From NCBI RefSeq assembly GCF_000011125.1, contig NC_000854.2, positions 1,290,001-1,322,000 on the forward strand: a DNA stretch of 32,000 nt, read 5' to 3'. Below the pieces are notes generated by a model. The model was not told where the DNA came from. It searched no databases and worked only from the letters and a program-made list of their open reading frames with translations. The stretch is from Aeropyrum pernix K1. GTDB taxonomy: Archaea > Thermoproteota > Thermoprotei_A > Sulfolobales > Acidilobaceae. Position numbers and translations under genes: made by a program. Of this stretch, positions 5,793-32,000 are shown piece after piece; position 1 is the first letter of the stretch, and the number at the start of each line of letters is the position of its first letter.

Positions 5793-5880
5793 TGGTGCGG
5801 GGGGTGGGATTTGAACCCACGCAGGCCTACGCCATCGGGTCCTGAGCCCGACCCCTTTGGCCAGGCTCGGGCACCCCCGC
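5793..5880 (-). tRNA. tRNA-Leu (anticodon CAG), class II with long variable arm, CCA encoded
   Basis: The reverse complement reads GCGGGGGTGCCCGAGCCTGGCCAAAGGGGTCGGGCTCAGGACCCGATGGCGTAGGCCTGCGTGGGTTCAAATCCCACCCCCCGCACCA. It has a 7-bp acceptor stem GCGGGGG/CCCCCGC, anticodon stem TCGGG/CCCGA with loop CTCAGGA (CAG), a 15-nt variable arm, T arm GTGGG-TTCAAAT-CCCAC, discriminator A and CCA. Confidence 0.9.
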
Positions 5881-9136: not shown

Positions 9137-9233
9137 AGTCCACTACTTTCCCCTGCATTGCCATAAAAAGTCTTAACCCCCCTACGTAGACCATATCACC
9201 CCATCCACTGTATAAGCCATTAGGTCTCGAGGG

Positions 9234-10217
9234 GTGTCCTTGGCAGCGTCCCTGGAAAAAGCTGGCCTCGGCATCTCGGTCAGGCTACTCGAGTATACTG
9301 GTGATGGAGAGCGTATTGTCGCTGTTGCTAGTAAGGTAAGCCTCTCCCGCAGCCCGGCGGAGAGGCTGCTGGCCATAGGGGAAGATGAAGTTGAGACTTG
9401 GATACTCGAGACGTTTAGAAGGCAGCATTTCAGCCCCTGGGAGCACAGCGTCTACACATTCATGGTTGAGGGTCTCTCGAGGGTGGCTAGCCACCAGCTA
9501 GTTAGACATAGGGTTGCTAGCTACACACAACTAAGCCATAGGTATAGCGAGGGCTACCTCAGGGAGGCCGCCCTCAAGGCCTGCGAATCCATCGGCCTAG
9601 ACTGTCCATCGAAACCGGCTGAGACGGAGGGCGGGCGGAAAGCCGCATACAGGCTGTACTCTCAGGCTCTGGAGAGAGCTGCTCGAGATTTCGGGGCTAG
9701 CGAGAGGTTTGCTATAGCGGCGAAGGCCTTCGTAATACCGCCTACCATTCTGGCGAGGGGTGATGGCGGTGATGGTGTCGTGGAGGCGTATCTACGGTCT
9801 GCAGCGATATACTATAGCCTACTCTCCCGGGGGGCTAGGCGTGAGGATGCGCGGTATATCCTGCCCGATGCGCTGAGAACCAGAATCGTTGTTACTATGA
9901 ATGCACGGGAGCTTATACAGGTCTTCTTCCCCCTGAGGATGTGCACTAGAGCCCAGTGGGAGATACGCCACATAGCCTGGCTGCTATGGCGAGAGCTATC
10001 CAGGGTTCATCCAAGGCTGTTCAGGTGGGCCGGGCCCAGCTGTGTGTTAAGGGAGAACACCCTTAGGACGACGCCCGCCAGCTTATACAGCTACCTGGAG
10101 GGCGTAGAGCGGTTTACACAGCCCCGCTGCCCTGAGCTTGTTGAGAACAAGGCTATACCGGGATGCCTCAGGCAGGCGGCATCGGTGGCGCCCCCCGGAG
10201 ACGGGGAGTACGAATAA
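9234..10217 (+). CDS. thyX: Flavin-dependent thymidylate synthase ThyX (unusually long, 327 aa)
   Basis: ThyX signature RHRVASYTQLSHRY (RHRxxSxxxxSxRY). HFSPWEH lies upstream, and ARYILPDALRTRIVVTMNAREL downstream. GTG start. Confidence 0.9.
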   Translation: MSLAASLEKAGLGISVRLLEYTGDGERIVAVASKVSLSRSPAERLLAIGEDEVETWILETFRRQHFSPWEHSVYTFMVEGLSRVASHQLVRHRVASYTQLSHRYSEGYLREAALKACESIGLDCPSKPAETEGGRKAAYRLYSQALERAARDFGASERFAIAAKAFVIPPTILARGDGGDGVVEAYLRSAAIYYSLLSRGARREDARYILPDALRTRIVVTMNARELIQVFFPLRMCTRAQWEIRHIAWLLWRELSRVHPRLFRWAGPSCVLRENTLRTTPASLYSYLEGVERFTQPRCPELVENKAIPGCLRQAASVAPPGDGEYE

Positions 10218-11839: not shown

Positions 11840-11946
11840 TATCCACCGTTCGACTGGGGCTTCAAGTCTAGGCCGTGGACTACCGGCTGCCCGGGGGTAA
11901 TCTTTATATTGTCAAGAGGTATTATCAAAACCCCTTAGAAGACTAT

Positions 11947-12906
11947 ATGGGGTGTTTACGTGCTTTGGCCTGCTCTAGAGCCAGGGCTAGGGCCTATTCT
12001 TCCGCGGCTAACCTAGGCCCCGGCTTCGATGCTCTAGCCGTCGCCCTGGACGCTTACTACGATGAGGTGGAGGTGAGGGTCTGCAGCGGAGGCAACAGTG
12101 TTTATGTGGATGAGGTGGAGGGCAAGTTCTCGTCGGGCGTTCTTCAAGGGCCCAACACCGCCGCAGAGGCGGTGCGAGGGCTTCTTAACATGGAGGGGGT
12201 GGAAGCTGAAGTCGGGATTAGGGTTTACAAGGGGGTCCCCCCAGGGAGGGGTTTGGGTAGCAGTGGCGCTTCGGCGGCTGCTGCAGTAGCAGCAGTATCA
12301 CATGCTCTAGCCCTGGAGGTGCCTGTGGATAGGCTGGTGTTCTATGCAGGCCTGGGCGAGAGGGCCGCGGCTGGGCAGCCCCACTTCGACAATGCCGCGG
12401 CAAGTATACTCGGTGGCCTGGCTGTAGTCGCCAGCGACGCCGCGGGCAAGCTGCGGGTGTTCAGGGTGCCTTTCAAGGCTTGGTTCGCCGTTGTGACGCC
12501 CATGAATCCGGTGCCCCAGGGCAAGACTGGCGTTATGCGTAAAGTACTCCCGGAGAACGTTAGCTTCAGAGACGCTGTGAGAAACTTCTCCAGAGCCGCT
12601 GGTATCGTAGCGGCAGCTGTCAACGGCGACCTCAAGTCCATGGGGGCTCTTATGATGTCCGACGAGATAGTCGAGCCTCGCAGGAGGAGTTACGTACCGT
12701 GCTATACCCAGGTGAGGAAAGCAGCCCTGCAAGCAGGGGCTCTAGGGTTCTCCCTCAGCGGTGCAGGACCTTCCATGATAGCCCTTGCTCCTAGCAGCGA
12801 GGCTGCCAGGGAGATAGCAGCTGCTATGGAGGAGTCATGCATATGCTGCGACAATCCGATGACCGTTGCGGCTGAGCCTGCTCCGGGAGCCTCGGTAGTG
12901 GGGTGA
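11947..12906 (+). CDS. thrB: Homoserine kinase (GHMP kinase family)
   Basis: SSAANLGPGFDALAVAL near the N-terminus and the GHMP motif PPGRGLGSSGASAAAAV. I prefer ATG 11947 to the track start GTG 11875, because TATA-like TTTATATT (11903-11910) and TATTATCAAAA lie just upstream. Confidence 0.85.
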   Translation: MGCLRALACSRARARAYSSAANLGPGFDALAVALDAYYDEVEVRVCSGGNSVYVDEVEGKFSSGVLQGPNTAAEAVRGLLNMEGVEAEVGIRVYKGVPPGRGLGSSGASAAAAVAAVSHALALEVPVDRLVFYAGLGERAAAGQPHFDNAAASILGGLAVVASDAAGKLRVFRVPFKAWFAVVTPMNPVPQGKTGVMRKVLPENVSFRDAVRNFSRAAGIVAAAVNGDLKSMGALMMSDEIVEPRRRSYVPCYTQVRKAALQAGALGFSLSGAGPSMIALAPSSEAAREIAAAMEESCICCDNPMTVAAEPAPGASVVG

Positions 12907-21161: not shown

Positions 21162-21890
21162 GTGATGGTTAATAATTTACCAGTGGAGACTGCTGTCGCA
21201 ACAGCCATACCACTAGCCCGGGGGTGCTTGGGCCTGGGCAGGACTTTGAAGAGGATACTCTGGCTTGACGGTAGGCCTTCAGCATTTAGGGTTGTTAAGC
21301 AGCATAGGGAGCTGCTAGCCCGCCAGGGCGTTGAGATAGAGGTTCCGAAGGGCGGGCCCCACCCGTCCTGGGCTGGTTGTGAGGTTGCCGTTCTACCGCC
21401 TCCGGATAGCCCTGAGAGGTCTTGGGCCGAGGGTTTTGTAGCCCCCCTGCGCTGCAGGCGGCTGGTCTCCAGCAAGGACCCCCTCAGGGCTCTCTACACC
21501 GCCCTTGCCTACCCGAGCCCCGGGTTCCTTCATGTCACTGTGGGTATAGATCCTGGTAGGATGTGTACGGCTGTTGCCCTTGCCGACGGCTTGGTGCTTT
21601 GGGAGTGGAAGGGGGGCTGTGGGGAGCTGGGCCCTGCTGTGAGGGGTGTTCTCTCCAGGATACCCCATGAGGGTAGTGCTGTATACCTGGGCTCGGGCCC
21701 AAGCTTCGAGGAGGCTGAGGAAAGCCTGGCGGCGGCTGGCCTCGGCTATAGTATAGTGGAGGAGTGGGGCTCCACGAGGTCGCCTTACGAGCCCCCTGGA
21801 GGCTTGTCCGGGCTCTTCTCTGATAAGGATATACTCGCTTCAATCACAATAGCTTACAGAGGTTTATCGAGATGGAGGATGCGAGTCTAA
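21162..21890 (+). CDS. Hypothetical protein with C-terminal RNase H-like/ASKHA-type fold motif (VGIDPG...)
   Basis: HVTVGIDPGRMCTAVALADGLVLWEW resembles the first strand and catalytic Asp of RuvC/YqgF-type nucleases, and also of actin-fold ATPases. The N-terminal ~115 aa are unassigned. The start is uncertain: GTG 21183 fits the TATA at 21146-21153 better. The 3' end overlaps the UbiD-family gene by 19 nt. Confidence 0.4.
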   Translation: MMVNNLPVETAVATAIPLARGCLGLGRTLKRILWLDGRPSAFRVVKQHRELLARQGVEIEVPKGGPHPSWAGCEVAVLPPPDSPERSWAEGFVAPLRCRRLVSSKDPLRALYTALAYPSPGFLHVTVGIDPGRMCTAVALADGLVLWEWKGGCGELGPAVRGVLSRIPHEGSAVYLGSGPSFEEAEESLAAAGLGYSIVEEWGSTRSPYEPPGGLSGLFSDKDILASITIAYRGLSRWRMRV

Positions 21891-23185
21891 AGAGCTTCCT
21901 AGAGAAGGTTGGGTACAGGGTTGTGGATAGAACGCTCTCGAGGGAATACGAGGTAGCTAGGCTGATAGCCGAGACCCAGGGGTGCGGTCCGCCCCTTCTG
22001 GCCAGGATTGAGGGTGTCAGACAGCCTGTCGCCGTTAACGTGGTGGACACCCGCGAAAAGCTCTACAAAGCCCTAGGTGTCACCGGGGATTCTGAGGCTT
22101 ACGCCAAGATAGTAGACTCGACGATGAGGCCCGGGAGGCTGGAGTACGTGGATAAGCCGCCCTTGGATGAGATGCCTGAGGGTTTCGAGGGACTTCCCGC
22201 GGCGAGGTTCTACGAGGGAGAGGCGGGCCTCTACCTCTCTTCAGGGATCGTCATCGCCTGCTATGAGGGGGTGTGTAACGCCAGCATACACAGGCTCCTT
22301 ATACTCGGCAGGGAGAGGGCAGCAATACGTATAGTCCCCCGCCACCTGTGGCACCTCTACAGGAAGGCTAGGGAGAGGGGCGAGGACCTCCCCGCCACTG
22401 TCGTAGTAGGCCTACACCCCGCCGTGCTGCTAGCCGCCGCTACTAGCCCGCCCCTGGGGGTCTTCGAGCTAGGCCTGGCGGCTGGCATGCTGGGGGGCTC
22501 CATGAAGGTCTATAGGAGCCCGGTCCACGGCAACCCCGTCCCCCTGGGTGCAGCTATGGTTGCCGATGTATGGATAACGGGAGAGCAGGTGGAGGAGGGG
22601 CCCTACGTTGACGCTCTACTCACCTACGACAGGGTTAGGAGGCAGCCTGTAGTCAGGCTCGAGGCAGCCTACATCAAGGAGGGTGAGTACACCCACACTA
22701 TAATGGGGGGGAGCCTGGAGCACGTTAATCTAATGGGCTTCCCTAGGGAGGCCAGCATATGGGAGGCTGTGAGGAGGGCTCTACCGAGAGTCAGAGCCGT
22801 CAGGCTGACGCCCGCCAGCGGTGGATGGCTGCACGCTGTGATAGCTGTAGAGAAGCAGCACGAGGGCGACGGGAAGACGGCTATAATGGCCGCGTTTGCC
22901 GCCCACCCTAGCCTCAAGCACGTGGTTGTTGTCGACAGTGACGTCGATGTTGATGACCCCATGCAGGTCGAGTGGGCCATAGCAACCCGCTTCCAGGCCG
23001 ACAAGGACCTAGTTATAATACCGAGGGCAAGAGGTTCGACCCTCGACCCGAGCGCTGCAGACGGCCTGACAGCTAAGATGGGTTTAGACGCTACTAAGCC
23101 CCTTGACGCGGGCATGGGGTACGAGAGGGGCAGGATACCGGGGTTTAAATGGGGCTCCAGGAGGTGCCACCAGCCGGGAGACTAA
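21872..23185 (+). CDS. UbiD-family (prFMN-dependent) decarboxylase; candidate trans-anhydromevalonate-5-phosphate decarboxylase
   Basis: UbiD blocks: NASIHRL, IRIVPRH, VVVGLHP, EEGPY..., and the C-terminal HVVVVDSDVDVDDPMQVEWAIATRFQADKDL...STLDPSA. 437 aa. Confidence 0.85.
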   Translation: MEDASLKSFLEKVGYRVVDRTLSREYEVARLIAETQGCGPPLLARIEGVRQPVAVNVVDTREKLYKALGVTGDSEAYAKIVDSTMRPGRLEYVDKPPLDEMPEGFEGLPAARFYEGEAGLYLSSGIVIACYEGVCNASIHRLLILGRERAAIRIVPRHLWHLYRKARERGEDLPATVVVGLHPAVLLAAATSPPLGVFELGLAAGMLGGSMKVYRSPVHGNPVPLGAAMVADVWITGEQVEEGPYVDALLTYDRVRRQPVVRLEAAYIKEGEYTHTIMGGSLEHVNLMGFPREASIWEAVRRALPRVRAVRLTPASGGWLHAVIAVEKQHEGDGKTAIMAAFAAHPSLKHVVVVDSDVDVDDPMQVEWAIATRFQADKDLVIIPRARGSTLDPSAADGLTAKMGLDATKPLDAGMGYERGRIPGFKWGSRRCHQPGD

Positions 23186-23205
23186 GACCCTGGAGGGGCT
23201 TTGGG

Positions 23206-23676
23206 ATGGCTAGGCTGTACCCCGGCCAGCCTGTTGTCGGCGTGGGGTGCCTGGTGTTCAGGGGTGGGAGGATTCTCCTGGTCAAGCGGAAGTACCCGCC
23301 GGGCAGGGGGAAGTGGAGCATACCCGGGGGGCATGTGAGGCTGGGGGAGACTCTGGAGGAGGTTGCTGCTAGGGAGCTTGAGGAGGAGACTGGCATCAAG
23401 GGGCGTCCTCTGGGGGTGGTTAACGTTGACGACGCGATAACTGTGGACGACAAGGGGGTTAGGTATCACTATGTTTTAATTACTGTCCTTCTCGAGGACC
23501 TGGGGGGCGAGCCACGAGGTGGCGATGACGCGGAAGAAGCTGGATTCTACACGCTGGACGAGGCCCTCAAACTCAACCTCACCCCATCCACCCTAGGGCT
23601 TATAGACAAGATAACCAGGGGCATGCTCTGCCTCGAAAAGCCCATCAAGCCTAGAAGGTACAGGCCTGCCGACTGA
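23206..23676 (+). CDS. Nudix hydrolase
   Basis: Nudix box GGHVRLGETLEEVAARELEEETGI. ATG 23206 (MARLYPGQPVVGVGCLVF) is preferred over the track start 23149, which overlaps the upstream gene. Confidence 0.85.
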   Translation: MARLYPGQPVVGVGCLVFRGGRILLVKRKYPPGRGKWSIPGGHVRLGETLEEVAARELEEETGIKGRPLGVVNVDDAITVDDKGVRYHYVLITVLLEDLGGEPRGGDDAEEAGFYTLDEALKLNLTPSTLGLIDKITRGMLCLEKPIKPRRYRPAD

Positions 23677-23720
23677 ATACCGGGCAACAGTATTAACCCT
23701 ACAAGACGGTAAAACCCTAG

Positions 23721-24869
23721 ATGAGGCTATGTTTTGGGGTGTGCTGCGTCGTGTACAGGTTTGTCAGTAAGACGGGTGAGGCAGCCCGACTTATAGTAGA
23801 CTACTGCATATCCGCCTCTAGGGGGGACGATGTCGCAGTATCCTTCGGCCTCCCTGCGATAGACTTTGCCAGGGCAGTGGCCCTTGAGGTCCTCTCGCGC
23901 GGGGCCTACCCCCTCCTGAACCTGAGGGACGAGTACGTCGCGGAGGCCATGTACAGGCTGGCCCCCGAAGAGCTGCTAGACTATATATCGCCTATAGACA
24001 TGTACATGCTTGAGAAAGTGGACGCCAGTATAAGCATAATAAGCCCCCTCCACACCAAGCCCCTAGCCACAGCAGACCCCGGGAAGGTGGCTAGGCGTAG
24101 CAGGGCGTCGAGGCCCCTGACGGAGCTGTTCATGAAGAGGGATGGTGAGGGCAGCCTGAGGTGGACGGTCACAGCATACCCTGCACCCAGCCTTGCGCAG
24201 GAGGCTGGTATGGGGCTGCTCGAGTTCGAGGATTTCGTTGTTAGAGCGTTGAAGCTGCATGAGGACGATCCTGTCGCTGCCTGGAAGAGGCAGGCCGAGT
24301 GGCAGGAGAAGGTGGCCGCCCTGCTCAGCAAGGCCTCCGAGCTGAGAGTGGTGTCCAGCGGCACAGACATAACGTTCAGGGTTGAAGGGAGGATATGGAT
24401 AAATGATGACGGCAAGAAGAACATGCCGGGAGGCGAGGTCTTCACAGCACCGCACGAGGACGGTGTGGAGGGAGTAGTGACGTTCGACTTCCCAGCAGTG
24501 TGGAGGGGCTTAGAGGTGGAGGGGGTGAGGCTGGAGTTCCGGGGCGGGCAGGTAGTGAAGGCCTCCGCCTCCAAGGGAGAGGAGCATCTAAGGAGAATAC
24601 TCGAGACGGACGAGGGCGCTAAGAGGCTGGGAGAACTGGCCTTCGGCCTGAACTACGATATACAGAGGCATATAAAGAACATACTCTTCGACGAGAAGAT
24701 AGGCGGCACAATGCACATGGCCCTAGGGGCGGCTTATCCCAGCACAGGAGGCAGGAACCAGTCGGCTATACACTGGGACATGGTCAAGGACCTGAGGAGA
24801 GAGTCCAGGGTCTACGCCGACGGCGACCTCATCTTCGAGAACGGCAGGTTCATAGAGGACTACCTATAA
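23721..24869 (+). CDS. Aminopeptidase, peptidase family M29 (AmpS/PepS-like)
   Basis: M29-type blocks: PGGEVFTAP, NILFDEKIGGTMHMALG, IHWDMV. The N-terminus EAARLIVDYC...GDDVAV is typical. Confidence 0.85.
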   Translation: MRLCFGVCCVVYRFVSKTGEAARLIVDYCISASRGDDVAVSFGLPAIDFARAVALEVLSRGAYPLLNLRDEYVAEAMYRLAPEELLDYISPIDMYMLEKVDASISIISPLHTKPLATADPGKVARRSRASRPLTELFMKRDGEGSLRWTVTAYPAPSLAQEAGMGLLEFEDFVVRALKLHEDDPVAAWKRQAEWQEKVAALLSKASELRVVSSGTDITFRVEGRIWINDDGKKNMPGGEVFTAPHEDGVEGVVTFDFPAVWRGLEVEGVRLEFRGGQVVKASASKGEEHLRRILETDEGAKRLGELAFGLNYDIQRHIKNILFDEKIGGTMHMALGAAYPSTGGRNQSAIHWDMVKDLRRESRVYADGDLIFENGRFIEDYL

Positions 24870-24942
24870 ATCTGCACGGGGCTCGGACGTAGGGCTGGCG
24901 TCACACCCCCCACCGGAGGAGGGTCGGGCGAAAACTCCCTCC

Positions 24943-26037
24943 TCACGGCCCTTCACTTTTAGCTTTCTCTCTTACTGCCGAAATGTCTAGCGCCGCCTCG
25001 GCTATGTCGAGGGAGTAGCCCGTTATCCTCCTCATACTATCTATTACCAGGTAGCGTAGGAGGCTCCCACCCCCCCTCAGGAACTCCTGGGCCGTCATGC
25101 TCTCCAGCCTGCTCCTGTACTCGCTCAGCACCGGTGCGATGCTGGCAGCCAGGCCTGCGTCAGCCTTTATGAGGGCTTCAACACTCTTTGAGAAGCCTTC
25201 CGCAGCCTCCATCACCAGGCTTGAAAGGCCGTTCTCAACGCTCATGCCTGCTCCTAGGCTAGCCGAGACTCTCACCGAGAGTATTGTCGCGTGATCCGCC
25301 ACCCTCTCTATGCTCTTGACGGCCAGGAAGAGGTGCACTATCTCGGCGGGGGAGTAGACGCCGAGGTCCTTGAGGGGTAGCCTGCCGCTCGAGGCCATAG
25401 TCATCTGCCTAGCCATGTAGAGGTATAGCTTGTCTACAAGCTGGTCCCTCTCGGCAACCAGGTCCAGCAAACCTCTATCCCCGTTTTCCAGCCCCCTGGC
25501 GACGTCTCTGATCATTTCCGCCGCTATCCTAGCCATCCTAGATAGGGCGCGTGAGAACTCCATGCTCCTGTGGTCGACCACAGAAACGAACACTATGTAC
25601 CCCGGACCCTCCTCGAGAACGTTGAAACCGAGTATGTTCGACTCGACTATACTCCTGATCTTAGACACAGCGTCTACACTGCCGTCGCCGAAGAGGAGGA
25701 GCACCTCGTCATAGCCGGCTAAGTATGAGGCTATAACGCTTTTGATAACGAATGACAAGTCGAGCTCCTTACCCCTCAGATCTATAACGCGCCTATCCCT
25801 CCTCGCAGGCCTCTCCGAAGCAGACGGGGCGATTTTGAGGCTGCCGTCAGGCATAACCTCCAGCGTAACCTCGCTCCCCCTGCCCAGCCTCCATGTTTCC
25901 ACCCACTCCTTAGGCAGGCTCACGATATACGTGGAGCGCCCGGTGAGCTGGATCCTCCTCTTGTAGGCAGCCCTACCGTCCAAAACACCCACCACAGTCA
26001 ATATTCTATATACTAGCCGGGAGAAACTATATAGCAC
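24943..26037 (-). CDS. AbrB/SpoVT-domain + PhoU-domain regulator (archaeal PhoU-like phosphate uptake regulator)
   Basis: The N-terminal [31 protein letters not shown] is an AbrB-type swapped-hairpin motif. The C-terminal helical repeats include the PhoU-like ERVADHA. Confidence 0.8.
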
Positions 26038-26109
26038 ACCCTTACCCGGAGGACCTCCGTCCCATATTTAAAGCTTCCGTCAATGCCTAGTAGCTTTGGG
26101 TGTAGCAGG

Positions 26110-26529
26110 ATGAGTGTCAACTATGCAACGCTGGGGGACCTCAAGAAGGGCAGTTATATAGTGATAGACGGTGAGCCCTGCAGGATAGTTGAGATGAGCA
26201 GGGCCAAGACAGGTAAGCACGGCAGCGCCAAGGCTCATGTGGTTGCCATATGCGTGTTCTCCGGCCAGAAAAAGAGTCTGGTGGCGCCGGTCGACACTAG
26301 GGTTCAGATTCCAGTTATAGAGAAGAGGCTTGGCCAGGTGCTGGCGGATATGGGGGACATGGTCCAGATAATGGACCTGGAGACCTACGATACCTTCGAG
26401 GTCGAGAAGCCTGGGGGGAACGAGGAGGAGGAGCAGCTGGCAGCCAAGCTGCAGCCAGGGGTCACCGTGGAGTACTGGCTGATAATGGGCAAGCCCAAGA
26501 TAATCAGGATAAGGAGCTCCTCCAGCTAG
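26110..26529 (+). CDS. eif5a: Translation initiation factor 5A (aIF5A)
   Basis: [34 protein letters not shown] contains the hypusine-site motif [11 protein letters not shown] 26110 is preferred over the upstream track start 26083. TATA ATATTTAAA is at 26064-26072. Confidence 0.95.
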
Positions 26530-27499
26530 CCCCGAGACCCAGCTCCTGCGCCCTCCTCCTAAACCACTCTCTAACAACAGGCCCCATAGGCCTCCCAAGA
26601 GCCCTTCTGGTTACCCTGCAGAAGCTGCACTCCCCGCCGGAGGACAGGAGGCCGCAGCTCGGGCACCTGCCTATAGAGCCCTTCGGCTTCGGGTAATCCT
26701 CAACCCTCTTTGCAAGCTTGGACACCATCTGTAGCTTTAGCCCCGGCCTCTTATCCTCGAGCTGGTTGACCGTCTCCTTCAGCTCCACCTCCATCTGCCT
26801 CCTCTCGACGAAGGGGCACTCCTCGTGCAGGAAGGGGAGGCCGGCCAGGAGGGAGTAGAGGAAGCTCTCCTTCTCGTAAACGTAGTAGAGAGGCCTCACC
26901 CTCCCCACGGCCACGCCCGGTATGCTCTCCGTCTTGACGCCGAGCTTCGATATAGCCTCTAGGTCCTGGTTGAGGAAGGACTTTAGGTTGTACACGGCTA
27001 TGTCGTCTGCGTTGTGGCCGAGGGCGACGGCATCGACGCCCAGCTCAACGGCGGCAGCGTTTATGACGTAGCGTTTAACCATGCCGCACACGCTGCACGG
27101 CGGCCTCTTAGAAGCCTTGGCAAGCTCCGGTATGCCAGCCCCCAGGACCTCATTCAAGTCAAACACTATGAGGGGCACGTCCAGCTGGCTGGCAAGCCTG
27201 ATAGAGGCTTCCCTGCTCTTCTCGGAGTACTCGTAGATGCCCAGGTGTATGTAGAGCGCGACTACGTGGAACCCGATCCTCCTTGAAAGCCTCGAGAGGA
27301 CTGCCAGCAGCGTGGAGCTGTCTTTGCCACCCGAGACTGCCGCGAGGACCCTATCCCCCTTACCAACAAGCCTGTGCCTCATTATTGCCCTCTCTACCTT
27401 GGACTCCACGAACTCGAGATAGTGGTCTCTGCATAAATACCGCCTCTGGTACCTGATATACGCCACCGCGGGGGCGCCGCAGACGCTGCACCTAGCCAC
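26504..27499 (-). CDS. ttuA: TtuA/NcsA-type tRNA 2-thiolation PP-loop ATPase
   Basis: N-terminal zinc finger CSVCG...CRDH, PP-loop [10 protein letters not shown], Fe-S ligand contexts [12 protein letters not shown] and HEECPF, and a C-terminal zinc finger CPSCG...CSFC. The GTG start overlaps the last codons of the upstream Ubl gene by 8 nt. Confidence 0.85.
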
Positions 27500-27740
27500 C
27501 GGAGAGCACCCTAACTACATCCACCGTCTCTCCAGGCGAGACGAGGTCCTCTGGCAGTAGCGGCTTCCCGTCTCTAAGCACCACAGCCACCTCCTCGTTC
27601 ATACCCAGCATCCGAAGCAGCTCGCCCGCCTTCAGCGGCCTCTCGGCCTGTATAACCCTCTCCCCACCCTCCGGCACAAGCCTAACCTTTATAGCCTGGC
27701 CGCCAGTCACACTCAAACCGTCTACACCCATTATAAACAT
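27492..27740 (-). CDS. ThiS/MoaD-like ubiquitin-fold sulfur-carrier protein with C-terminal Gly-Gly (TtuB/SAMP-like)
   Basis: 82 aa ending ...[14 protein letters not shown]-stop. It shows the ThiS pattern (…L.dGD.Vehh..h.GG). It lies directly upstream of, and overlaps, the TtuA-like gene. Confidence 0.75.
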   Translation of the reverse strand: MFIMGVDGLSVTGGQAIKVRLVPEGGERVIQAERPLKAGELLRMLGMNEEVAVVLRDGKPLLPEDLVSPGETVDVVRVLSGG

Positions 27741-27756
27741 GGTTTAGCTCTAAACC
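27741..27756. promoter_or_regulatory. Palindrome GGTTTAG-ct-CTAAACC abutting the start codon of the Ubl-ttuA operon
   Basis: Perfect 7-bp arms at 27741-27747 and 27750-27756. It shares the GGTTTAGC/CTAAACC arms with the nrdJ upstream repeat (6155-6180). Confidence 0.35.
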
Positions 27757-27772
27757 AAAGTATTAACCCCGC

Positions 27773-27780
27773 CTATATAA
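27773..27780. promoter_or_regulatory. Shared TATA box (CTATATAA) in the 51-bp divergent region between the Ubl-ttuA operon and the AcnX genes
   Basis: Its centre is about 30 nt from the in-frame TTG 27807 (+) and about 37 nt from ATG 27740 (-). The core TATATA is palindromic. Confidence 0.4.
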
Positions 27781-27791
27781 GTTAGGAGTAT

Positions 27792-29015
27792 GTGGGCTGG
27801 TGTGTATTGTACCTGACGAGGGAGGAGGAGAGGATTCTGGCCGGCGAGGAGGGCGAGGCTAGGGCGAAGGCGCTGGAGGTTATAGTGAAGGTCGGCGAGG
27901 CTGTCGGGGCCGAGAGGCTAATACCAATTAAACACGCCCACGTCTCCGGGGCAAGCTACATGACTATAGGGGATGCTGGCCTCCGCTTCCTAGCCAGACT
28001 GGCTGAGAGCGGGGCTAGGTTCAGCGTGCCAACCACAGTGAACCCCGTTAGCTACGACGTTGAAGAGCCCGGCGCTATCCCCATGACTCGTCTGAGCCCC
28101 AGGATCGTGAAGGCCCAGAGCGAGATACTAAAGGCTCTAGAAGCTATGGGCGCGGACTTGATACTGACGTGCACGCCCTACTACACCGAGGTCCCCCGGA
28201 GAGTAGGACTCAGAGAGGGGGATAGCGTGGCCTGGGGCGAGTCCAGCGCAGTGGCCTATGCAAACAGTGTTCTGGGCATACACACTAACCGCGAGGGGGG
28301 TCCCCTGGCACTGATGGCGGGCATAGCAGGGAGGACCTACTTCTACGGAGCCCACGATCCCGAGTGGAGGAAGCCTAGGGTGGCCTACAGGCTTGAAACG
28401 CCGAAGGTGCTTGACGAGACCGAGGCCGGGGTGCTCGGGGAGGTTATAGCGACGCAGCACAGGGACGAGCATCCCCCCCTCCTAGACGCCCCCCTGGGGG
28501 GTGAGGCGGCGCTCAAAGAGTTCTCCGCCGCCGTAGGCTCGGCTGGCAGCCTGGCGATGGTTCACATAACCGGGGTGACCCCCGGGGACCCTGGTGACAT
28601 GATTGAGGAGGTTGTGACTATGGACTACGGCGACCTGGCAAGGAGGATGGAGGACCTGGCTCCAGGCTTCGAACCCGACATCCTCTACGTTGGCTGCCCC
28701 CACGCCAGCATAGAGGAGCTTAGGAGGCTCTACAGGGCCCTCTCGAAGGCTGGGGAGAGGGCGGGGCGTAGGACCGTGGTCTCGATCTCGAGGAGCCTCT
28801 ACCTGCAAGCCCTCAGAGAGGGCCTGGTTGAGAAGCTAAAGGGGCTGGGTGTAAGGTTCGTGAGGGACTCCTGCCTCATAGTCAGCCCCTTCAGCAGCGG
28901 CGCCCGAGGGGTGAGGGTGGCTACCAACAGCTACAAGGCCTACTTCTACCTGTCGAAGAAGGGTGTAGAGGTGGGTCTGGCGCCTATAGAGGCTCTGCCA
29001 AAGCTGGTGTCGTAG
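27792..29015 (+). CDS. Aconitase X catalytic (large) subunit, DUF521 type; candidate phosphomevalonate dehydratase large subunit
   Basis: The N-terminus YLTREEERILAGEEGEARAKAL and IPIKHAHVSGASY are typical of AcnX/DUF521. Conserved Cys contexts are LTCTPYY, VGCPHAS, RDSCLIVSP. The track start is GTG 27792. The in-frame TTG 27807 ((M)YLTREEE...) fits the TATA box better. Confidence 0.85.
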   Translation: MGWCVLYLTREEERILAGEEGEARAKALEVIVKVGEAVGAERLIPIKHAHVSGASYMTIGDAGLRFLARLAESGARFSVPTTVNPVSYDVEEPGAIPMTRLSPRIVKAQSEILKALEAMGADLILTCTPYYTEVPRRVGLREGDSVAWGESSAVAYANSVLGIHTNREGGPLALMAGIAGRTYFYGAHDPEWRKPRVAYRLETPKVLDETEAGVLGEVIATQHRDEHPPLLDAPLGGEAALKEFSAAVGSAGSLAMVHITGVTPGDPGDMIEEVVTMDYGDLARRMEDLAPGFEPDILYVGCPHASIEELRRLYRALSKAGERAGRRTVVSISRSLYLQALREGLVEKLKGLGVRFVRDSCLIVSPFSSGARGVRVATNSYKAYFYLSKKGVEVGLAPIEALPKLVS

Positions 29016-29044
29016 AGCCGGCGCGGGAACTATGGTGGTGAGCG

Positions 29045-29443
29045 GTGGAGGTCCTCAGGTACAGGTCCAGGCCTATTGTTGGGGGGGAGGCGGAGGGGCC
29101 GGCGGTTGTTATAGATAGCCTCAGCTTCTACGGCGAGGTAGACCCGGAGACCGGGGTGACGAGCGGTGGAAAGCCGCTTGCAGGCAGGGTGGCGGCCATC
29201 AGGAGGAGCAGGGGTAGCACGGTGGGAAGCTACGTGATCTACGCCCTAAAGGAGAACGGCGTGGCACCGCTGGCCATACTCATGGAGAGGGCGGAGCCGA
29301 TAGTTATAGCCGGCTGCGTCCTAGCCGGTATACCTCTCTACGACGGCCTGCCGCCAGAGTTCTTCGAGAGGGTTAGGGACGGCTACAGGGTTAGGGTGCA
29401 TAGCGACGGGCTCGTCGAGGTCCTAGGCCCTGGCCAGCCCTAG
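29045..29443 (+). CDS. Aconitase X swivel (small) subunit, DUF126 type; candidate phosphomevalonate dehydratase small subunit
   Basis: 132 aa. IVGGEAEGPAVVIDSLSFYGEVDPETGV and GSTVGSYVIY are typical of the AcnX small subunit. It starts 29 nt downstream of the large subunit. GTG start. Confidence 0.8.
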   Translation: MEVLRYRSRPIVGGEAEGPAVVIDSLSFYGEVDPETGVTSGGKPLAGRVAAIRRSRGSTVGSYVIYALKENGVAPLAILMERAEPIVIAGCVLAGIPLYDGLPPEFFERVRDGYRVRVHSDGLVEVLGPGQP

Positions 29444-30049
29444 GGCCTCGAAAACCCTCTCCGCTATCTCACCCTGCACATCCTCTATACCTCTCTCAAC
29501 CCCTCCCCTGACGCCCTCAACCCGTATAACCTTCACGCCCCTGGCTCTGGCAAGCCTCAGGACCTCCTCGTACATGCTTTTAACGCGTTCTAGAAACTCG
29601 GGTGTCTCGAAAACCTCCCTCCTCTCTCTGGCCGTTATCCTCCTCAGGGCCACCTCGGTCGGGACATCTATGTAGACGAGGATCTCCGCCTCCGGCGCCT
29701 TCCTGTTAACCGCGTCAACCCACTCCAACCCCGAGCCGACGCCCTGGTAGGCTAGGCTGCTGTACTTGTAACGGTCGACGACGAGGACCTCGGGGCTGCC
29801 GCCGCACCTCTCCACCACGCCTAGCCGGAGCCCCCACAGCCTGTCTGCAGCGAATAGCAGGGCCATCAAGTCGCTGTCCACACCCTCTGTACTCCTCAGG
29901 AACCCTCTTATCAGCCGGCCCACAGGCCCCTCCGTGGGCTCCTTCCAGAGGCAGGACTTGACTCCCGCGCCCGCAAGCCTGGCGTGGAGCAGCCTGGAGT
30001 GTGTGGAGACTCCGGAGCCGTCTATGCCCTCAAGGGCTACTATCCTCAT
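29423..30049 (-). CDS. tmk: Thymidylate kinase-like protein with non-canonical P-loop
   Basis: MRIVALEGIDGSGVST (TMK P-loop context), DRYKYSSLAYQG (DRY/AYQ block), and an Arg-rich lid RRITARERRE. The P-loop Lys position is Val. Confidence 0.75.
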   Translation of the reverse strand: MRIVALEGIDGSGVSTHSRLLHARLAGAGVKSCLWKEPTEGPVGRLIRGFLRSTEGVDSDLMALLFAADRLWGLRLGVVERCGGSPEVLVVDRYKYSSLAYQGVGSGLEWVDAVNRKAPEAEILVYIDVPTEVALRRITARERREVFETPEFLERVKSMYEEVLRLARARGVKVIRVEGVRGGVERGIEDVQGEIAERVFEALGLARA

Positions 30050-30080: not shown

Positions 30081-31043
30081 CTAGAAGATTGGGAGGTCCT
30101 CGGGGTTTCTATAGGCTATTGCGTAGGCCCCCATTACACCCTCGTTATCCCCGAAGCTCGCATCCACAACCTCTATCCTGGACGAGAAGGGGGCGTAGGC
30201 CGCTAGATGCCTCTCTATAAGCGGCCTGAGCATCCGCCTGTTGTTCAGGTAGACTGAGCCTCCTATTATGACTGCGTCGACGTCGTAGGCAGCCTTAACC
30301 GAGGCTATACCAGCGGCCGACGCCCTGGCTATATAGTCTATAACGTGGAGCGCGAAATCGTCGCCCACGGCGGCCGCCTCAAACACCTCCCTAGCGCTCC
30401 CCACCCTCCCCTCTAACGCCGCCCTGTACAGACTAGTCTCGGGACCCCTCCAGCCTCTGGCTAGAACCGAGGAGGTCCTCGGTATCCACCTCCCCCCCGC
30501 TATCGCCTCCCAATGACCCGTGCCGCCGCACCCGCACCTCCCGCCCTCCCAGCCCATGTCGACGACTATGTGGCCCACCTCGTGGGCGTTCCCCCGGGAG
30601 CCCAGTAGGAGCCTGCCGCCGACTACGAAGCCTCCTCCCACGCCGGTGCTCATGGTTATGTACCCCAGGTCGGGTGTGCCTGCCAATCTGCCCAGCAGAT
30701 ACTCGCCCCACGCCGCCGCTACTGCGTCGTTAGCAATGGCAACCTTTGACTTGGGGAACAGCCGCTTGAGTATAGTGCTTAGACGGACTATATGCGACTT
30801 GATATTCGGGCTGCCCACTATGTAGCCCCTCCGAAGGTCCAGGGGGCCTATTGAAGCGGCCCCCACTTTCTCGACCCGCCCCCTATCGATGCCTAGCCCC
30901 TCGGCAAGGCCCTGGAGAACACGCTCTAAACCTTCCTCGGTACCGGGGTTACGCTCTCTCTTGATAGCCTCTATAACCCCTCCCCTAACTATGGCCATCC
31001 TAACCCACGTGGCACCCACGTCTACAGCAACAACCTCCGCCAC
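30081..31043 (-). CDS. glk: ROK-family sugar kinase (glucokinase/hexokinase)
   Basis: N-terminal ATP motif VVAVDVGATWVR, and the ROK/zinc block GHIVVD...CGCGGTGHWEAIAGG. The track ORF runs to 31211, but its first 56 codons lack ROK similarity. GTG 31043 gives a 320-aa, ROK-sized protein. Confidence 0.85.
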   Translation of the reverse strand: MAEVVAVDVGATWVRMAIVRGGVIEAIKRERNPGTEEGLERVLQGLAEGLGIDRGRVEKVGAASIGPLDLRRGYIVGSPNIKSHIVRLSTILKRLFPKSKVAIANDAVAAAWGEYLLGRLAGTPDLGYITMSTGVGGGFVVGGRLLLGSRGNAHEVGHIVVDMGWEGGRCGCGGTGHWEAIAGGRWIPRTSSVLARGWRGPETSLYRAALEGRVGSAREVFEAAAVGDDFALHVIDYIARASAAGIASVKAAYDVDAVIIGGSVYLNNRRMLRPLIERHLAAYAPFSSRIEVVDASFGDNEGVMGAYAIAYRNPEDLPIF

Positions 31044-31205
31044 GCCGCAACACCACCAATGTTTGTTTTGCCCGGAGATCTTTCGGGAGTAAAGCCTCTC
31101 CGCTAGGCCCCCCGGGACTCGCCGCAGCCAGCCATAGTATGTGGGGGGTCGGGTTTGTATAGGGAGGCGTTGTCTAGGGCGGTTGACCGTGTTAAATGGG
31201 CTCCT

Positions 31206-32000
31206 ATGCACGTTAGGCTGCTGGCTGTAGCCCTAAGTTTGGGGGCGCTTGAGGTCCTCACGCTGGGCACGTACAGGCTCGTCCTCGCGTCCTCGGCCCT
31301 GGCAACGGTTGTAGTTGTAGCCCGCTCTGGCATGCTCGGCGGTATCCTCGATTCTCTGAGGGGCCGTATGCATGGTGGAGGCGGGGAGGATGCGGGGGTT
31401 GGGGGCGTGAGGCTTATGGAGGTCAGGATAAGCCGGGGCGGCTTTGACGCCGCCTCCCAGGTCTCCAGGCTAATACTGTCCAGGTCTAGACAGTCTGGGT
31501 CGGAGTATATCGTGGCCTCCTCGGTGTACAGGGGCTATTCTAGGGTTGTTGTGGCGGTGGCAAACGACAGCCCTGAGGAGCTGAGGGTTGACTATGAAGT
31601 CCTATCGTCGATAATAGCGTCGAACGTGGCGGGAGTTCAGGTCATCCCTCTGGAGGCCGGCGAGGCCGGGGGGCTCGTGAGGAGGCTCTCAAAGCTTCTG
31701 GGCGTCAGAGGCTCCACGCCACCCCTCATACCGCCTCCAAGCCGGGCGGCCCCTCCAGCCGGTGGAGCCGGGCTTCTCAGGCTGGGCGTGAGGCTCGACA
31801 CGCCCACCCCCGAGCCCTTGTACCTTGAGCAGAGCGATATCGAGGGGCATATAGGCGTCTTCGGCAGTACTGGCAGCGGGAAGACCACAACCCTCGCAAC
31901 AATAGCCTGCGGCGCGGCAGAGGCGGGCCTACCAGTCGTGGTGGCTGACTGGCACGGGGAGTACCAGCGCCTAGTAGGGGGCGGGGGTTGCAGGCCTCGG
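31206..32000 (+). CDS. Membrane-anchored HerA/FtsK-like (DUF87-type) P-loop ATPase, N-terminal part (continues beyond the window)
   Basis: This ORF is not in the track because it is open-ended. ATG 31206 is in frame to base 32000 with no stop. The N-terminal hydrophobic helix is MHVRLLAVALSLGALEVLTLG... Walker A is in the HerA-like context EGHIGVFGSTGSGKTTTLA (about 31850-31900), followed by PVVVADWHGEY. Confidence 0.6.
   Translation, partial: MHVRLLAVALSLGALEVLTLGTYRLVLASSALATVVVVARSGMLGGILDSLRGRMHGGGGEDAGVGGVRLMEVRISRGGFDAASQVSRLILSRSRQSGSEYIVASSVYRGYSRVVVAVANDSPEELRVDYEVLSSIIASNVAGVQVIPLEAGEAGGLVRRLSKLLGVRGSTPPLIPPPSRAAPPAGGAGLLRLGVRLDTPTPEPLYLEQSDIEGHIGVFGSTGSGKTTTLATIACGAAEAGLPVVVADWHGEYQRLVGGGGCRPR

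What the first reader, a model, noticed from the sequence alone, without database searches (positions are those of the whole stretch)
27792..29443. Split aconitase-X pair: candidate phosphomevalonate dehydratase of the archaeal mevalonate route
Seen: a 407-aa DUF521-type AcnX catalytic subunit and, 29 nt downstream, a 132-aa DUF126-type swivel subunit. Three conserved Cys contexts in the large subunit are plausible Fe-S ligands.

Established knowledge (from memory): two-subunit archaeal AcnX dehydrates mevalonate 5-phosphate to trans-anhydromevalonate 5-phosphate. I recall this being shown in Aeropyrum pernix in 2018. Bacterial AcnX is instead a cis-3-hydroxy-L-proline dehydratase, so the family name alone does not fix the substrate.

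Inference: no proline or hydroxyproline catabolic genes are nearby, and a UbiD-family decarboxylase sits 4.6 kb upstream. That favours the isoprenoid role. If the organism is A. pernix, this is the known system rather than a new one.
Basis: partly seen in the sequence, partly recalled or inferred. Interest (0 to 1): 0.75.

Follow-up and report, generated by a model that had tools for sequence, protein, structure and literature searches.

The report
Known Aeropyrum pernix phosphomevalonate dehydratase genes

Summary
A 407-aa AcnX catalytic ORF (27792-29015) is followed 29 nt later by a 132-aa AcnX swivel ORF (29045-29443).

Exact-sequence look-ups show the window is Aeropyrum pernix K1. The small subunit is APE_2089 (Q9YA49). 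The large subunit is APE_2087.1 (Q9YA51), identical from residue 6, so the curated start is TTG 27807 (402 aa), not GTG 27792. Published cloning primers for Ape_2089 match the window exactly.

This heteromer has been purified, reconstituted and shown to interconvert mevalonate 5-phosphate and trans-anhydromevalonate 5-phosphate. It uses a [4Fe-4S] cluster held by Cys122, Cys297 and Cys356, the only three cysteines in the mature protein.

The UbiD ORF 4.6 kb upstream is exactly APE_2078 (Q9YA60), the next pathway enzyme, anhydromevalonate phosphate decarboxylase.

Verdict: interpretation supported, system already known, low interest.

Side observations:
- In most close relatives the decarboxylase and both dehydratase genes form one operon. 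Aeropyrum has six unrelated genes inserted between them.
- The convergent, overlapping "thymidylate kinase" lacks the Walker-A lysine, as do most of its closest homologues.
- APE_2077.1 is a conserved, uncharacterised upstream neighbour of the decarboxylase.

The parts
27774..27780 (+). TATA-box-like TATATAA, 27-33 nt upstream of the TTG start. Candidate archaeal promoter for a leaderless or near-leaderless transcript.
   Evidence: Read directly from the sequence. The promoter role is inferred and there is no transcript data. It would place the GTG at 27792 upstream of, or at the very 5' end of, the mRNA, which fits the 402-aa annotation.
27807..29015 (+). Phosphomevalonate dehydratase large (catalytic) subunit, APE_2087.1 / Q9YA51, 402 aa, AcnX type IIb.
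   Evidence: Pfam AcnX E 2.2e-121. 401/402 identical to BAA81098.2, the only difference being the TTG start read as Leu. Cluster look-up names. PDB 7cnr_A E 1.1e-68. Gene callers on other A. pernix assemblies aa.
28170..28172 (+). Cys122 codon (Cys127 in 407-aa numbering), [4Fe-4S] ligand, context LILTCTPYY.
   Evidence: Coordinates. Invariant in alignment A1. C122A loses the cluster and more than 96% of activity (PMC10040528).
28695..28697 (+). Cys297 codon (Cys302 in 407-aa numbering), [4Fe-4S] ligand, context LYVGCPHAS.
   Evidence: C297A mutant data in PMC10040528.
28872..28874 (+). Cys356 codon (Cys361 in 407-aa numbering), [4Fe-4S] ligand, context VRDSCLIVS.
   Evidence: C356A mutant data in PMC10040528.
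29016..29044 (+). 29-nt intercistronic spacer containing a purine-rich GGTGGTGAG (GGTGA at 29037), a Shine-Dalgarno-like element 4-8 nt before the GTG start of the small subunit.
   Evidence: Sequence read. The ribosome-binding role and co-transcription are inferred.
29045..29443 (+). Phosphomevalonate dehydratase small (swivel, aconitase domain-4-like) subunit, APE_2089 / Q9YA49, 132 aa.
   Evidence: Pfam AcnX_swivel E 3.7e-25. Exact match to BAA81100.1. PDB 7cnr_B E 3.3e-26. Published cloning primers match at 29047-29068 (+) and 29422-29440 (-).
21872..23185 (+). [quoted passage not shown] It catalyses the next step of the same pathway.
   Evidence: Pfam UbiD_N/UbiD/UbiD_C. TIGR00148 at 287.8 bits. 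Exact match to BAA81089.1 named 'Anhydromevalonate phosphate decarboxylase'. Locus tag APE_2078 cited in PMC7976604. Directly upstream of the large-subunit gene in 50 of 68 related loci.

Best explanation
The two ORFs are the genes for phosphomevalonate dehydratase (PMDh, AcnX type IIb) of Aeropyrum pernix K1. The large subunit is APE_2087.1 (27807-29015, 402 aa) and the small subunit is APE_2089 (29045-29443, 132 aa).

Shown in the literature for this exact protein:
- The subunits form a 1:1 heteromer.
- The large subunit, equivalent to aconitase domains 1-3, holds an oxygen-labile [4Fe-4S] cluster through Cys122, Cys297 and Cys356.
- The enzyme reversibly dehydrates (R)-mevalonate 5-phosphate to trans-anhydromevalonate 5-phosphate.

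Inferred by the authors from modelling on 7CNS: the fourth, non-cysteine-ligated iron binds the 3-hydroxyl of the substrate, and the small subunit plays the role of the aconitase swivel domain 4 that closes the active site.

The product is decarboxylated by the prenylated-FMN-dependent UbiD-type enzyme APE_2078, encoded 4.6 kb upstream in the same window. That gives isopentenyl phosphate, which is then phosphorylated to isopentenyl diphosphate for archaeal membrane lipid synthesis.

Inferred here from the sequence: the pair is a bicistronic unit with a TATA-like box about 30 nt before a TTG start and a Shine-Dalgarno-like element before the second cistron.
For: Identity: the small subunit is an exact match to BAA81100.1/Q9YA49. 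The 407-aa ORF is an exact match to the original K1 ORF call, and the 402-aa BAA81098.2/Q9YA51 is identical from residue 6. Eight further proteins in the window are exact matches either to current K1 entries or to database sequences that cluster with K1 entries differing only at the start. Ape_2089 cloning primers from PMC10040528 match uniquely at 29047-29068 and 29422-29440.

Family: PF04412 E 2e-121 and PF01989 E 4e-25. The best PDB hits are both chains of type IIb 7cnr.

Ligands: there are exactly three Cys, all invariant. C122A, C297A and C356A lose the cluster and retain less than 4% activity. EPR indicates [4Fe-4S]. Km is 18.3 uM and kcat 15.2 s-1, measured in the hydration direction. 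The subunit ratio is 1:1 (PMC10040528).

Pathway context: AMPD is an exact match in the window. AMPD lies directly upstream in 50/68 related loci and the small subunit directly downstream in 63/75.
Against: Nothing substantive. No experiment was done here, so the functional statements rest on published work for the identical protein. The original 2018 PNAS paper (PMC6176645) is not in the held library, so it is cited only through later papers. Promoter, leaderless start and co-transcription are inferred from sequence only. In A. pernix the dehydratase genes are not contiguous with AMPD, unlike in most relatives.
Confidence: 0.97

Rival explanations
1. [quoted passage not shown]
For: It belongs to the same Pfam families. 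[quoted passage not shown] PDB type I enzymes 7d2r and 7cnp are hit at about E 1e-33.
Against: The NF051439 score is 201 bits against a cut-off of 700. The type IIb enzyme 7cnr scores twice as high as the type I enzymes. The site-C cysteine of type I enzymes (Cys510 in AtAcnX) is absent, since the protein has only three Cys and they lie at sites A, B and 1 (PMC10040528). No hydroxyproline or proline catabolic genes are in the window. The identical protein has demonstrated MVA5P/tAHMP activity.
Confidence: 0.01
2. The pair is a generic aconitase or homoaconitase-type (iso)citrate or isopropylmalate isomerase, as in the original 'putative aconitase, subunit' annotation and the 2003 AcnX prediction.
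For: GenBank names for BAA81098 and BAA81100 still read 'putative aconitase, subunit'. There is distant similarity to the isopropylmalate/citramalate isomerase large subunit (4nqy, E 1e-3).
Against: That similarity is marginal, at 21 bits over 78 residues. The experimentally determined substrate is MVA5P (PMC10040528). Genomic linkage across relatives is with AMPD, not with TCA-cycle or leucine or lysine biosynthesis genes.
Confidence: 0.01

Closest known systems
Aeropyrum pernix phosphomevalonate dehydratase ApPMDh (Ape_2087.1 + Ape_2089; Hayakawa et al. 2018 PNAS; Yasuno et al. 2021; Komeyama et al. 2023, PMC10040528)
   Same: Identical sequence for both subunits, the same genome, and the same neighbouring genes.
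Thermococcus kodakarensis AcnX type IIb TK1249/TK1248 (PDB 7CNR, 7CNS; Watanabe et al. 2021, PMC8184944)
   Same: Two-subunit architecture, the same three Cys contexts and the same N-terminus MYLT(K/R)EEE. E 1.1e-68 for the large subunit and 3.3e-26 for the small. The literature gives 37-38% and 43-44% identity.
   Different: The crystal structures show a [3Fe-4S] cluster and no activity was demonstrated. ApPMDh is shown to be active with a [4Fe-4S] cluster.
[quoted passage not shown]
   Same: Same AcnX superfamily fold. The Cys at sites A and B are shared.
   Different: Type I is a single fused polypeptide with 4-1-2-3 domain order and a [2Fe-2S] cluster. It has a site-C Cys instead of site 1, a different substrate, a bacterial catabolic context and oxygen tolerance.
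Classical aconitase superfamily two-subunit dehydratases (homoaconitase, isopropylmalate isomerase LeuC/LeuD)
   Same: Large plus small subunit genes in tandem, and a [4Fe-4S] cluster with three Cys ligands and one free catalytic iron.
   Different: Only marginal sequence similarity (E about 1e-3). The ligand positions are partly different. The enzyme performs a one-way dehydration/hydration and not an isomerisation.

Membership tests
Phosphomevalonate dehydratase (AcnX type IIb) | Large subunit carries the AcnX catalytic domain (aconitase domains 1-3 equivalent) | tested here: met
   PF04412 E 2.2e-121, covering 6-400 of 407. The precomputed domains PF28403 and PF28406 (AcnX 2nd and 3rd) are on the identical protein.
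Phosphomevalonate dehydratase (AcnX type IIb) | Separate small subunit with the AcnX swivel domain, encoded next to the large subunit | tested here: met
   PF01989 E 3.7e-25. It lies 29 nt downstream on the same strand. The same arrangement is seen in 63/75 related loci.
Phosphomevalonate dehydratase (AcnX type IIb) | Three conserved Cys at sites A, B and 1 (Cys122/297/356 in ApPMDh) and no site-C Cys | tested here: met
   The protein has exactly three Cys at 122, 297 and 356. All are invariant in A1. Site definitions are from PMC10040528.
Phosphomevalonate dehydratase (AcnX type IIb) | Closer in sequence to characterised type IIb than to type I/IIa enzymes | tested here: met
   7cnr_A scores 235.5 bits against 117-122 bits for type I. 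7cnr_B scores 95 bits against 33-34 bits. The protein is sequence-identical to the founding type IIb member. No formal tree including type IIa was built.
Phosphomevalonate dehydratase (AcnX type IIb) | Catalyses MVA5P <-> trans-anhydromevalonate 5-phosphate | not testable with these tools
   Published for the identical protein: Km 18.3 uM and kcat 15.2 s-1 in the hydration direction (PMC10040528). First shown by Hayakawa 2018, cited.
Phosphomevalonate dehydratase (AcnX type IIb) | Genome also encodes the UbiD-type anhydromevalonate phosphate decarboxylase | tested here: met
   ORF 21872-23185 is an exact match to Q9YA60. It is contiguous with PMDh genes in 50/68 related loci.
Phosphomevalonate dehydratase (AcnX type IIb) | Genome lacks classical phospho- or diphosphomevalonate decarboxylase | not testable with these tools
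   Only a 32-kb window is available. The one GHMP-family gene in it is homoserine kinase. The literature states that A. pernix uses the archaeal pathway.
[quoted passage not shown] | Passes the NCBIfam equivalog NF051439 cut-off | tested here: not met
   201.3 bits for the large subunit and 48.2 bits for the small, against a cut-off of 700.
[quoted passage not shown] | Site-C cysteine (Cys510 of AtAcnX) ligating a [2Fe-2S] cluster | tested here: not met
   There is no fourth Cys in the protein. PMDh homologues lack site C (PMC10040528). EPR shows [4Fe-4S].
[quoted passage not shown] | Hydroxyproline or proline catabolic gene neighbourhood | tested here: not met
   The neighbours are TtuA, SAMP2, eIF5A, a PhoU-like protein, an M29 peptidase, a Nudix hydrolase, a Tmk-like protein and a ROK kinase.

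The most novel reading that the evidence does not exclude
The dehydratase pair itself is the known enzyme. The only unexcluded novelty lies in its neighbours.

The thymidylate-kinase-like gene (29423-30049, minus strand) converges on the small-subunit gene and overlaps it by 21 nt. It stays paired with that gene in Acidilobaceae-type loci even where the large and small subunit genes have separated. It lacks the Walker-A lysine.

This gene might be functionally tied to the archaeal mevalonate pathway instead of being a dTMP kinase. For example, it might act on, or sense, a phosphorylated isoprenoid intermediate.
Probability: 0.04. Interest if true: 0.55.

Novelty: already known. Interest (0 to 1): 0.08.

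Why it matters
It matters little as a discovery. This is the founding, biochemically characterised example of the enzyme that defines the archaeal (trans-anhydromevalonate phosphate) mevalonate pathway. That pathway is considered the ancestral, ATP-saving route to isoprenoid precursors, and it is already being used in metabolic engineering.

The value of this check is in three points:
- A sequence-only reader identified the function and its caveat correctly.
- The gene start is corrected to TTG 27807.
- The genomic context is documented: Aeropyrum has a split version of an otherwise contiguous AMPD-PMDhL-PMDhS operon.

The side observations (a lysine-less Tmk-like subfamily and the uncharacterised APE_2077.1 family) are modest leads.

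Tried and rejected
1. GHMP kinase at 11875-12906 as a possible mevalonate kinase. Rejected: it passes the homoserine kinase equivalogs (244.9 bits against a cut-off of 194) and scores only 34 bits on mevalonate kinase. K1 annotates it as homoserine kinase.

2. Nudix hydrolase (23206-23676) next to AMPD as a DMAPP-to-DMAP supplier for prenyl-FMN synthesis. There is no synteny support: it was found near these genes in only 1 of 80 loci, another Aeropyrum.

3. Tmk-like gene as a subunit of the crenarchaeal polyphosphate kinase PPK3 (PMC12995831). Rejected: it scores 24 bits to the PPK3-type structure 2plr against 75 bits to genuine Tmk 2pbr. It retains the DRY motif that rPPK3 lacks. PPK3 is reported mainly in Sulfolobaceae and Nitrososphaeraceae.

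4. APE_2077.1 function. There were no Pfam, NCBIfam or PDB sequence hits. The AlphaFold model is moderate (pLDDT 70.8) and Foldseek found no real match (best TM 0.28).

5. The reverse cloning primer with its TTA stop did not match, because the native stop is TAG. It matches once the stop codon is removed.

6. look-ups of two minus-strand proteins were mis-specified: I trimmed the start codon instead of the stop. The Tmk-like protein was redone correctly. The ROK kinase was not re-queried, so its K1 identity is untested.

7. The original 2018 paper PMC6176645 is not held. It is cited only through later papers.

8. Antisense ORFs inside the large-subunit gene (28137-28472 and 28482-28808, minus strand) have no family hits and are treated as GC-rich shadow ORFs.

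9. tRNA and Rfam scans of the window found only tRNA-Leu(CAG). No RNA element is associated with the pair.

Full report
**Observation**

The window carries an ORF at 27792..29015 (+, 407 aa, GTG) and a second at 29045..29443 (+, 132 aa, GTG), 29 nt apart. Pfam assigns the first to AcnX (PF04412, E 2.2e-121, residues 6-400) and the second to the AcnX swivel domain (PF01989, E 3.7e-25). The two antisense ORFs inside the large gene have no family hits. The region is 62.7% G+C, so I treat them as shadow ORFs.

**Identity**

An exact-sequence look-up places both proteins in Aeropyrum pernix K1:
- The 132-aa protein is BAA81100.1 / Q9YA49, 'Phosphomevalonate dehydratase small subunit'.
- The 407-aa ORF equals the original K1 ORF call.
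- The current entry BAA81098.2 / Q9YA51, 'Phosphomevalonate dehydratase large subunit', is 402 aa and identical from residue 6 onward.

Eight other proteins in the window are also exact matches, either to current K1 entries or to database sequences that cluster with K1 entries differing only at the start. So the window is a stretch of the K1 chromosome.

Komeyama et al. 2023 (PMC10040528) name the enzyme subunits Ape_2087.1 and Ape_2089 and print their cloning primers. The Ape_2089 forward primer core matches uniquely at 29047-29068. The reverse primer matches at 29422-29440 once its engineered TAA stop is removed, the native stop being TAG.

**Gene start**

The curated protein starts at TTG 27807. 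Three lines support this:
- The T. kodakarensis orthologue and all aligned homologues begin at the equivalent MYLT(R/K)EEE.
- Independent gene calls on other A. pernix assemblies give 402 aa.
- A TATATAA box lies at 27774-27780, about 30 nt upstream of the TTG. This would suit a leaderless transcript. The promoter role is inference only.

A GGTGGTGAG element precedes the GTG of the small subunit, consistent with an internal cistron (inference).

**Type within the AcnX family**

The best solved structures are both chains of 7cnr, the T. kodakarensis type IIb enzyme (E 1.1e-68 and 3.3e-26). [quoted passage not shown] The NCBIfam equivalog for that dehydratase is missed by a wide margin (201 against 700 bits).

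The mature protein has exactly three cysteines, at 122, 297 and 356 (codons 28170, 28695 and 28872). All three are invariant across homologues down to 41% identity.

**Mechanism (from the literature on this same protein)**

- ApPMDh is a 1:1 heteromer.
- It carries an oxygen-labile [4Fe-4S] cluster, shown by EPR after dithionite reduction.
- C122A, C297A and C356A lose the cluster and retain less than 4% activity, whereas E145A keeps 76%.
- Km is 18.3 uM and kcat 15.2 s-1 in the hydration direction.
- Modelling on 7CNS places the substrate's 3-hydroxyl on the fourth iron.
- The equilibrium favours mevalonate 5-phosphate.

**Pathway context**

The UbiD-family ORF at 21872-23185 ends 4,607 nt upstream. 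It is an exact match to Q9YA60, 'Anhydromevalonate phosphate decarboxylase', locus APE_2078. So two consecutive enzymes of the archaeal mevalonate pathway are in the window.

The only GHMP kinase present is homoserine kinase, not mevalonate kinase. No proline or hydroxyproline catabolic genes occur.

**Comparative context**

I fetched 80 genomic loci encoding relatives of the large subunit. They are the best-scoring of at least 581, so they are biased towards Thermoprotei.

- The small subunit follows directly on the same strand in 63 of the 75 loci with room.
- The decarboxylase lies directly upstream on the same strand in 50 of 68.
- Only in the window and in an Aeropyrum sp. MAG (L005) are the two separated. 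There, 4.6-5.8 kb holds a Nudix hydrolase, an M29 aminopeptidase, a PhoU/AbrB protein, eIF5A, TtuA and SAMP2.

Aeropyrum therefore has a split version of an otherwise contiguous AMPD-PMDhL-PMDhS operon. That MVA pathway genes usually cluster is stated in general terms in the literature.

**Side observation 1: a thymidylate-kinase-like gene without the Walker-A lysine**

A thymidylate-kinase-like gene follows the small subunit in 27 of 68 loci. The window's copy (29423-30049, minus strand; Q9YA48, 'Putative thymidylate kinase') converges on the small-subunit gene and overlaps it by 21 nt.

Its Walker-A motif reads GIDGSGVST, so the lysine is replaced by valine. Of its 120 closest homologues, 94 have T, L, I, V or S at that position and only 19 have K. 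Most of the lysine-less homologues keep a DRY motif.

It passes the dTMP kinase equivalog. It is much closer to genuine Tmk structures than to the PPK3-type 2plr. It is therefore not the recently described crenarchaeal polyphosphate kinase.

In Acidilobaceae-type loci, the convergent pairing of the small-subunit gene with this Tmk-like gene persists even where the large and small subunit genes are separated. Its function is untested as far as I could find.

**Side observation 2: APE_2077.1**

APE_2077.1 (21162-21890) overlaps the AMPD start by 19 nt. It has no Pfam, NCBIfam or PDB sequence match.

It belongs to a narrow family, with 43 representatives in 1.84 billion proteins. In 24 of the 80 loci a relative lies upstream of AMPD or beside the Tmk-like gene. 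In the two Desulfurococcaceae loci examined (L041, L073), a Clp1-type P-loop kinase gene sits between it and AMPD.

A shallow-alignment AlphaFold model (pLDDT 70.8) has no convincing structural neighbour. The function is unknown. The Clp1 neighbour hints at an RNA-related role.

**Verdict**

Novelty: already known. Interest: low.

Noticed in passing
window 29423-30049 (-): The 'thymidylate kinase' Q9YA48 converges on the PMDh small-subunit gene and overlaps it by 21 nt. It has Val in place of the Walker-A lysine (GIDGSGVST). Of its 120 closest homologues, archaeal and bacterial, 94 also lack the lysine (T/L/I/V/S), and most of these keep a DRY motif. It is not PPK3-like. The convergent pairing with the small-subunit gene is kept in Acidilobaceae-type loci (L006, L007, L008, L010, L012).
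   Followed up: partly
window 21162-21890 (+): APE_2077.1 is an uncharacterised protein whose gene overlaps the AMPD start by 19 nt. It has no Pfam, NCBIfam or PDB match and belongs to a narrow family (43 representatives in 1.84 billion). Relatives lie upstream of AMPD or beside the Tmk-like gene in 24 of the 80 related loci. In L041 and L073 a Clp1-type kinase gene sits between it and AMPD. It contains a VGIDPG motif, and the AF2 model has no convincing structural neighbour.
   Followed up: partly
window 23186-27806; loci L005-L084: In most relatives AMPD, PMDh-L and PMDh-S are contiguous on one strand (AMPD directly upstream in 50/68 loci). In A. pernix and one Aeropyrum MAG, six unrelated genes (Nudix, M29 aminopeptidase, PhoU/AbrB, eIF5A, TtuA, SAMP2) separate AMPD from PMDh. 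This suggests an ancestral operon was split in this genus.
   Followed up: yes
window 27792 vs 27807; also 23149/23206, 23721, 24943-26037, 11875, 30081-31211: The longest-ORF starts overshoot the shorter gene models for several genes. PMDh-L is 407 aa against 402, Nudix 175 against 156, M29 peptidase 382 against 372, PhoU-like 364 against 346 and homoserine kinase 343 against 313 (curated K1 entries). The ROK kinase is 376 aa against a 320-aa gene call on another A. pernix assembly (L001).
   Followed up: partly
window 26083-26529 (+) and 26080-26598 (-): The real gene here is eIF5A on the + strand (NF003076, 187.6 bits). The longer 172-aa antisense ORF has no family hit and is probably spurious. 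The eIF5A 3' end overlaps the 3' end of the convergent TtuA gene (26504-27499) by 26 nt.
   Followed up: partly
window 26504-27740 (-): TtuA-type tRNA 2-thiouridine synthetase (PP-loop plus LIM domain) lies immediately downstream of a SAMP2 ubiquitin-like small modifier gene. The pair is transcribed divergently from the PMDh promoter region, with only about 66 nt between the SAMP2 start (27740) and the PMDh-L start (27807).
   Followed up: no
window 6185-10217 (+): Deoxynucleotide-metabolism genes sit side by side: a 983-aa adenosylcobalamin-dependent ribonucleotide reductase NrdJ, followed by ThyX. The NrdJ barrel domain spans 756 residues against a 523-position profile, so about 230 extra residues are inserted. 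ThyX is 327 aa and is also longer than its profile. No intein domain was detected and the insertions were not examined.
   Followed up: no
L041 5597-6115 (-) and neighbouring genes: In a Desulfurococcaceae locus, CDP-archaeol synthase (CarS, PF01864) lies about 2.6 kb upstream of, and divergent from, the APE_2077.1-like/Clp1/AMPD/PMDhL/PMDhS/Tmk gene string. This links a lipid head-group activation gene loosely to the isoprenoid precursor genes.
   Followed up: no
window 5793-5880 (-): tRNA-Leu (anticodon CAG) is the only RNA gene detected in the window by ARAGORN and Rfam.
   Followed up: yes
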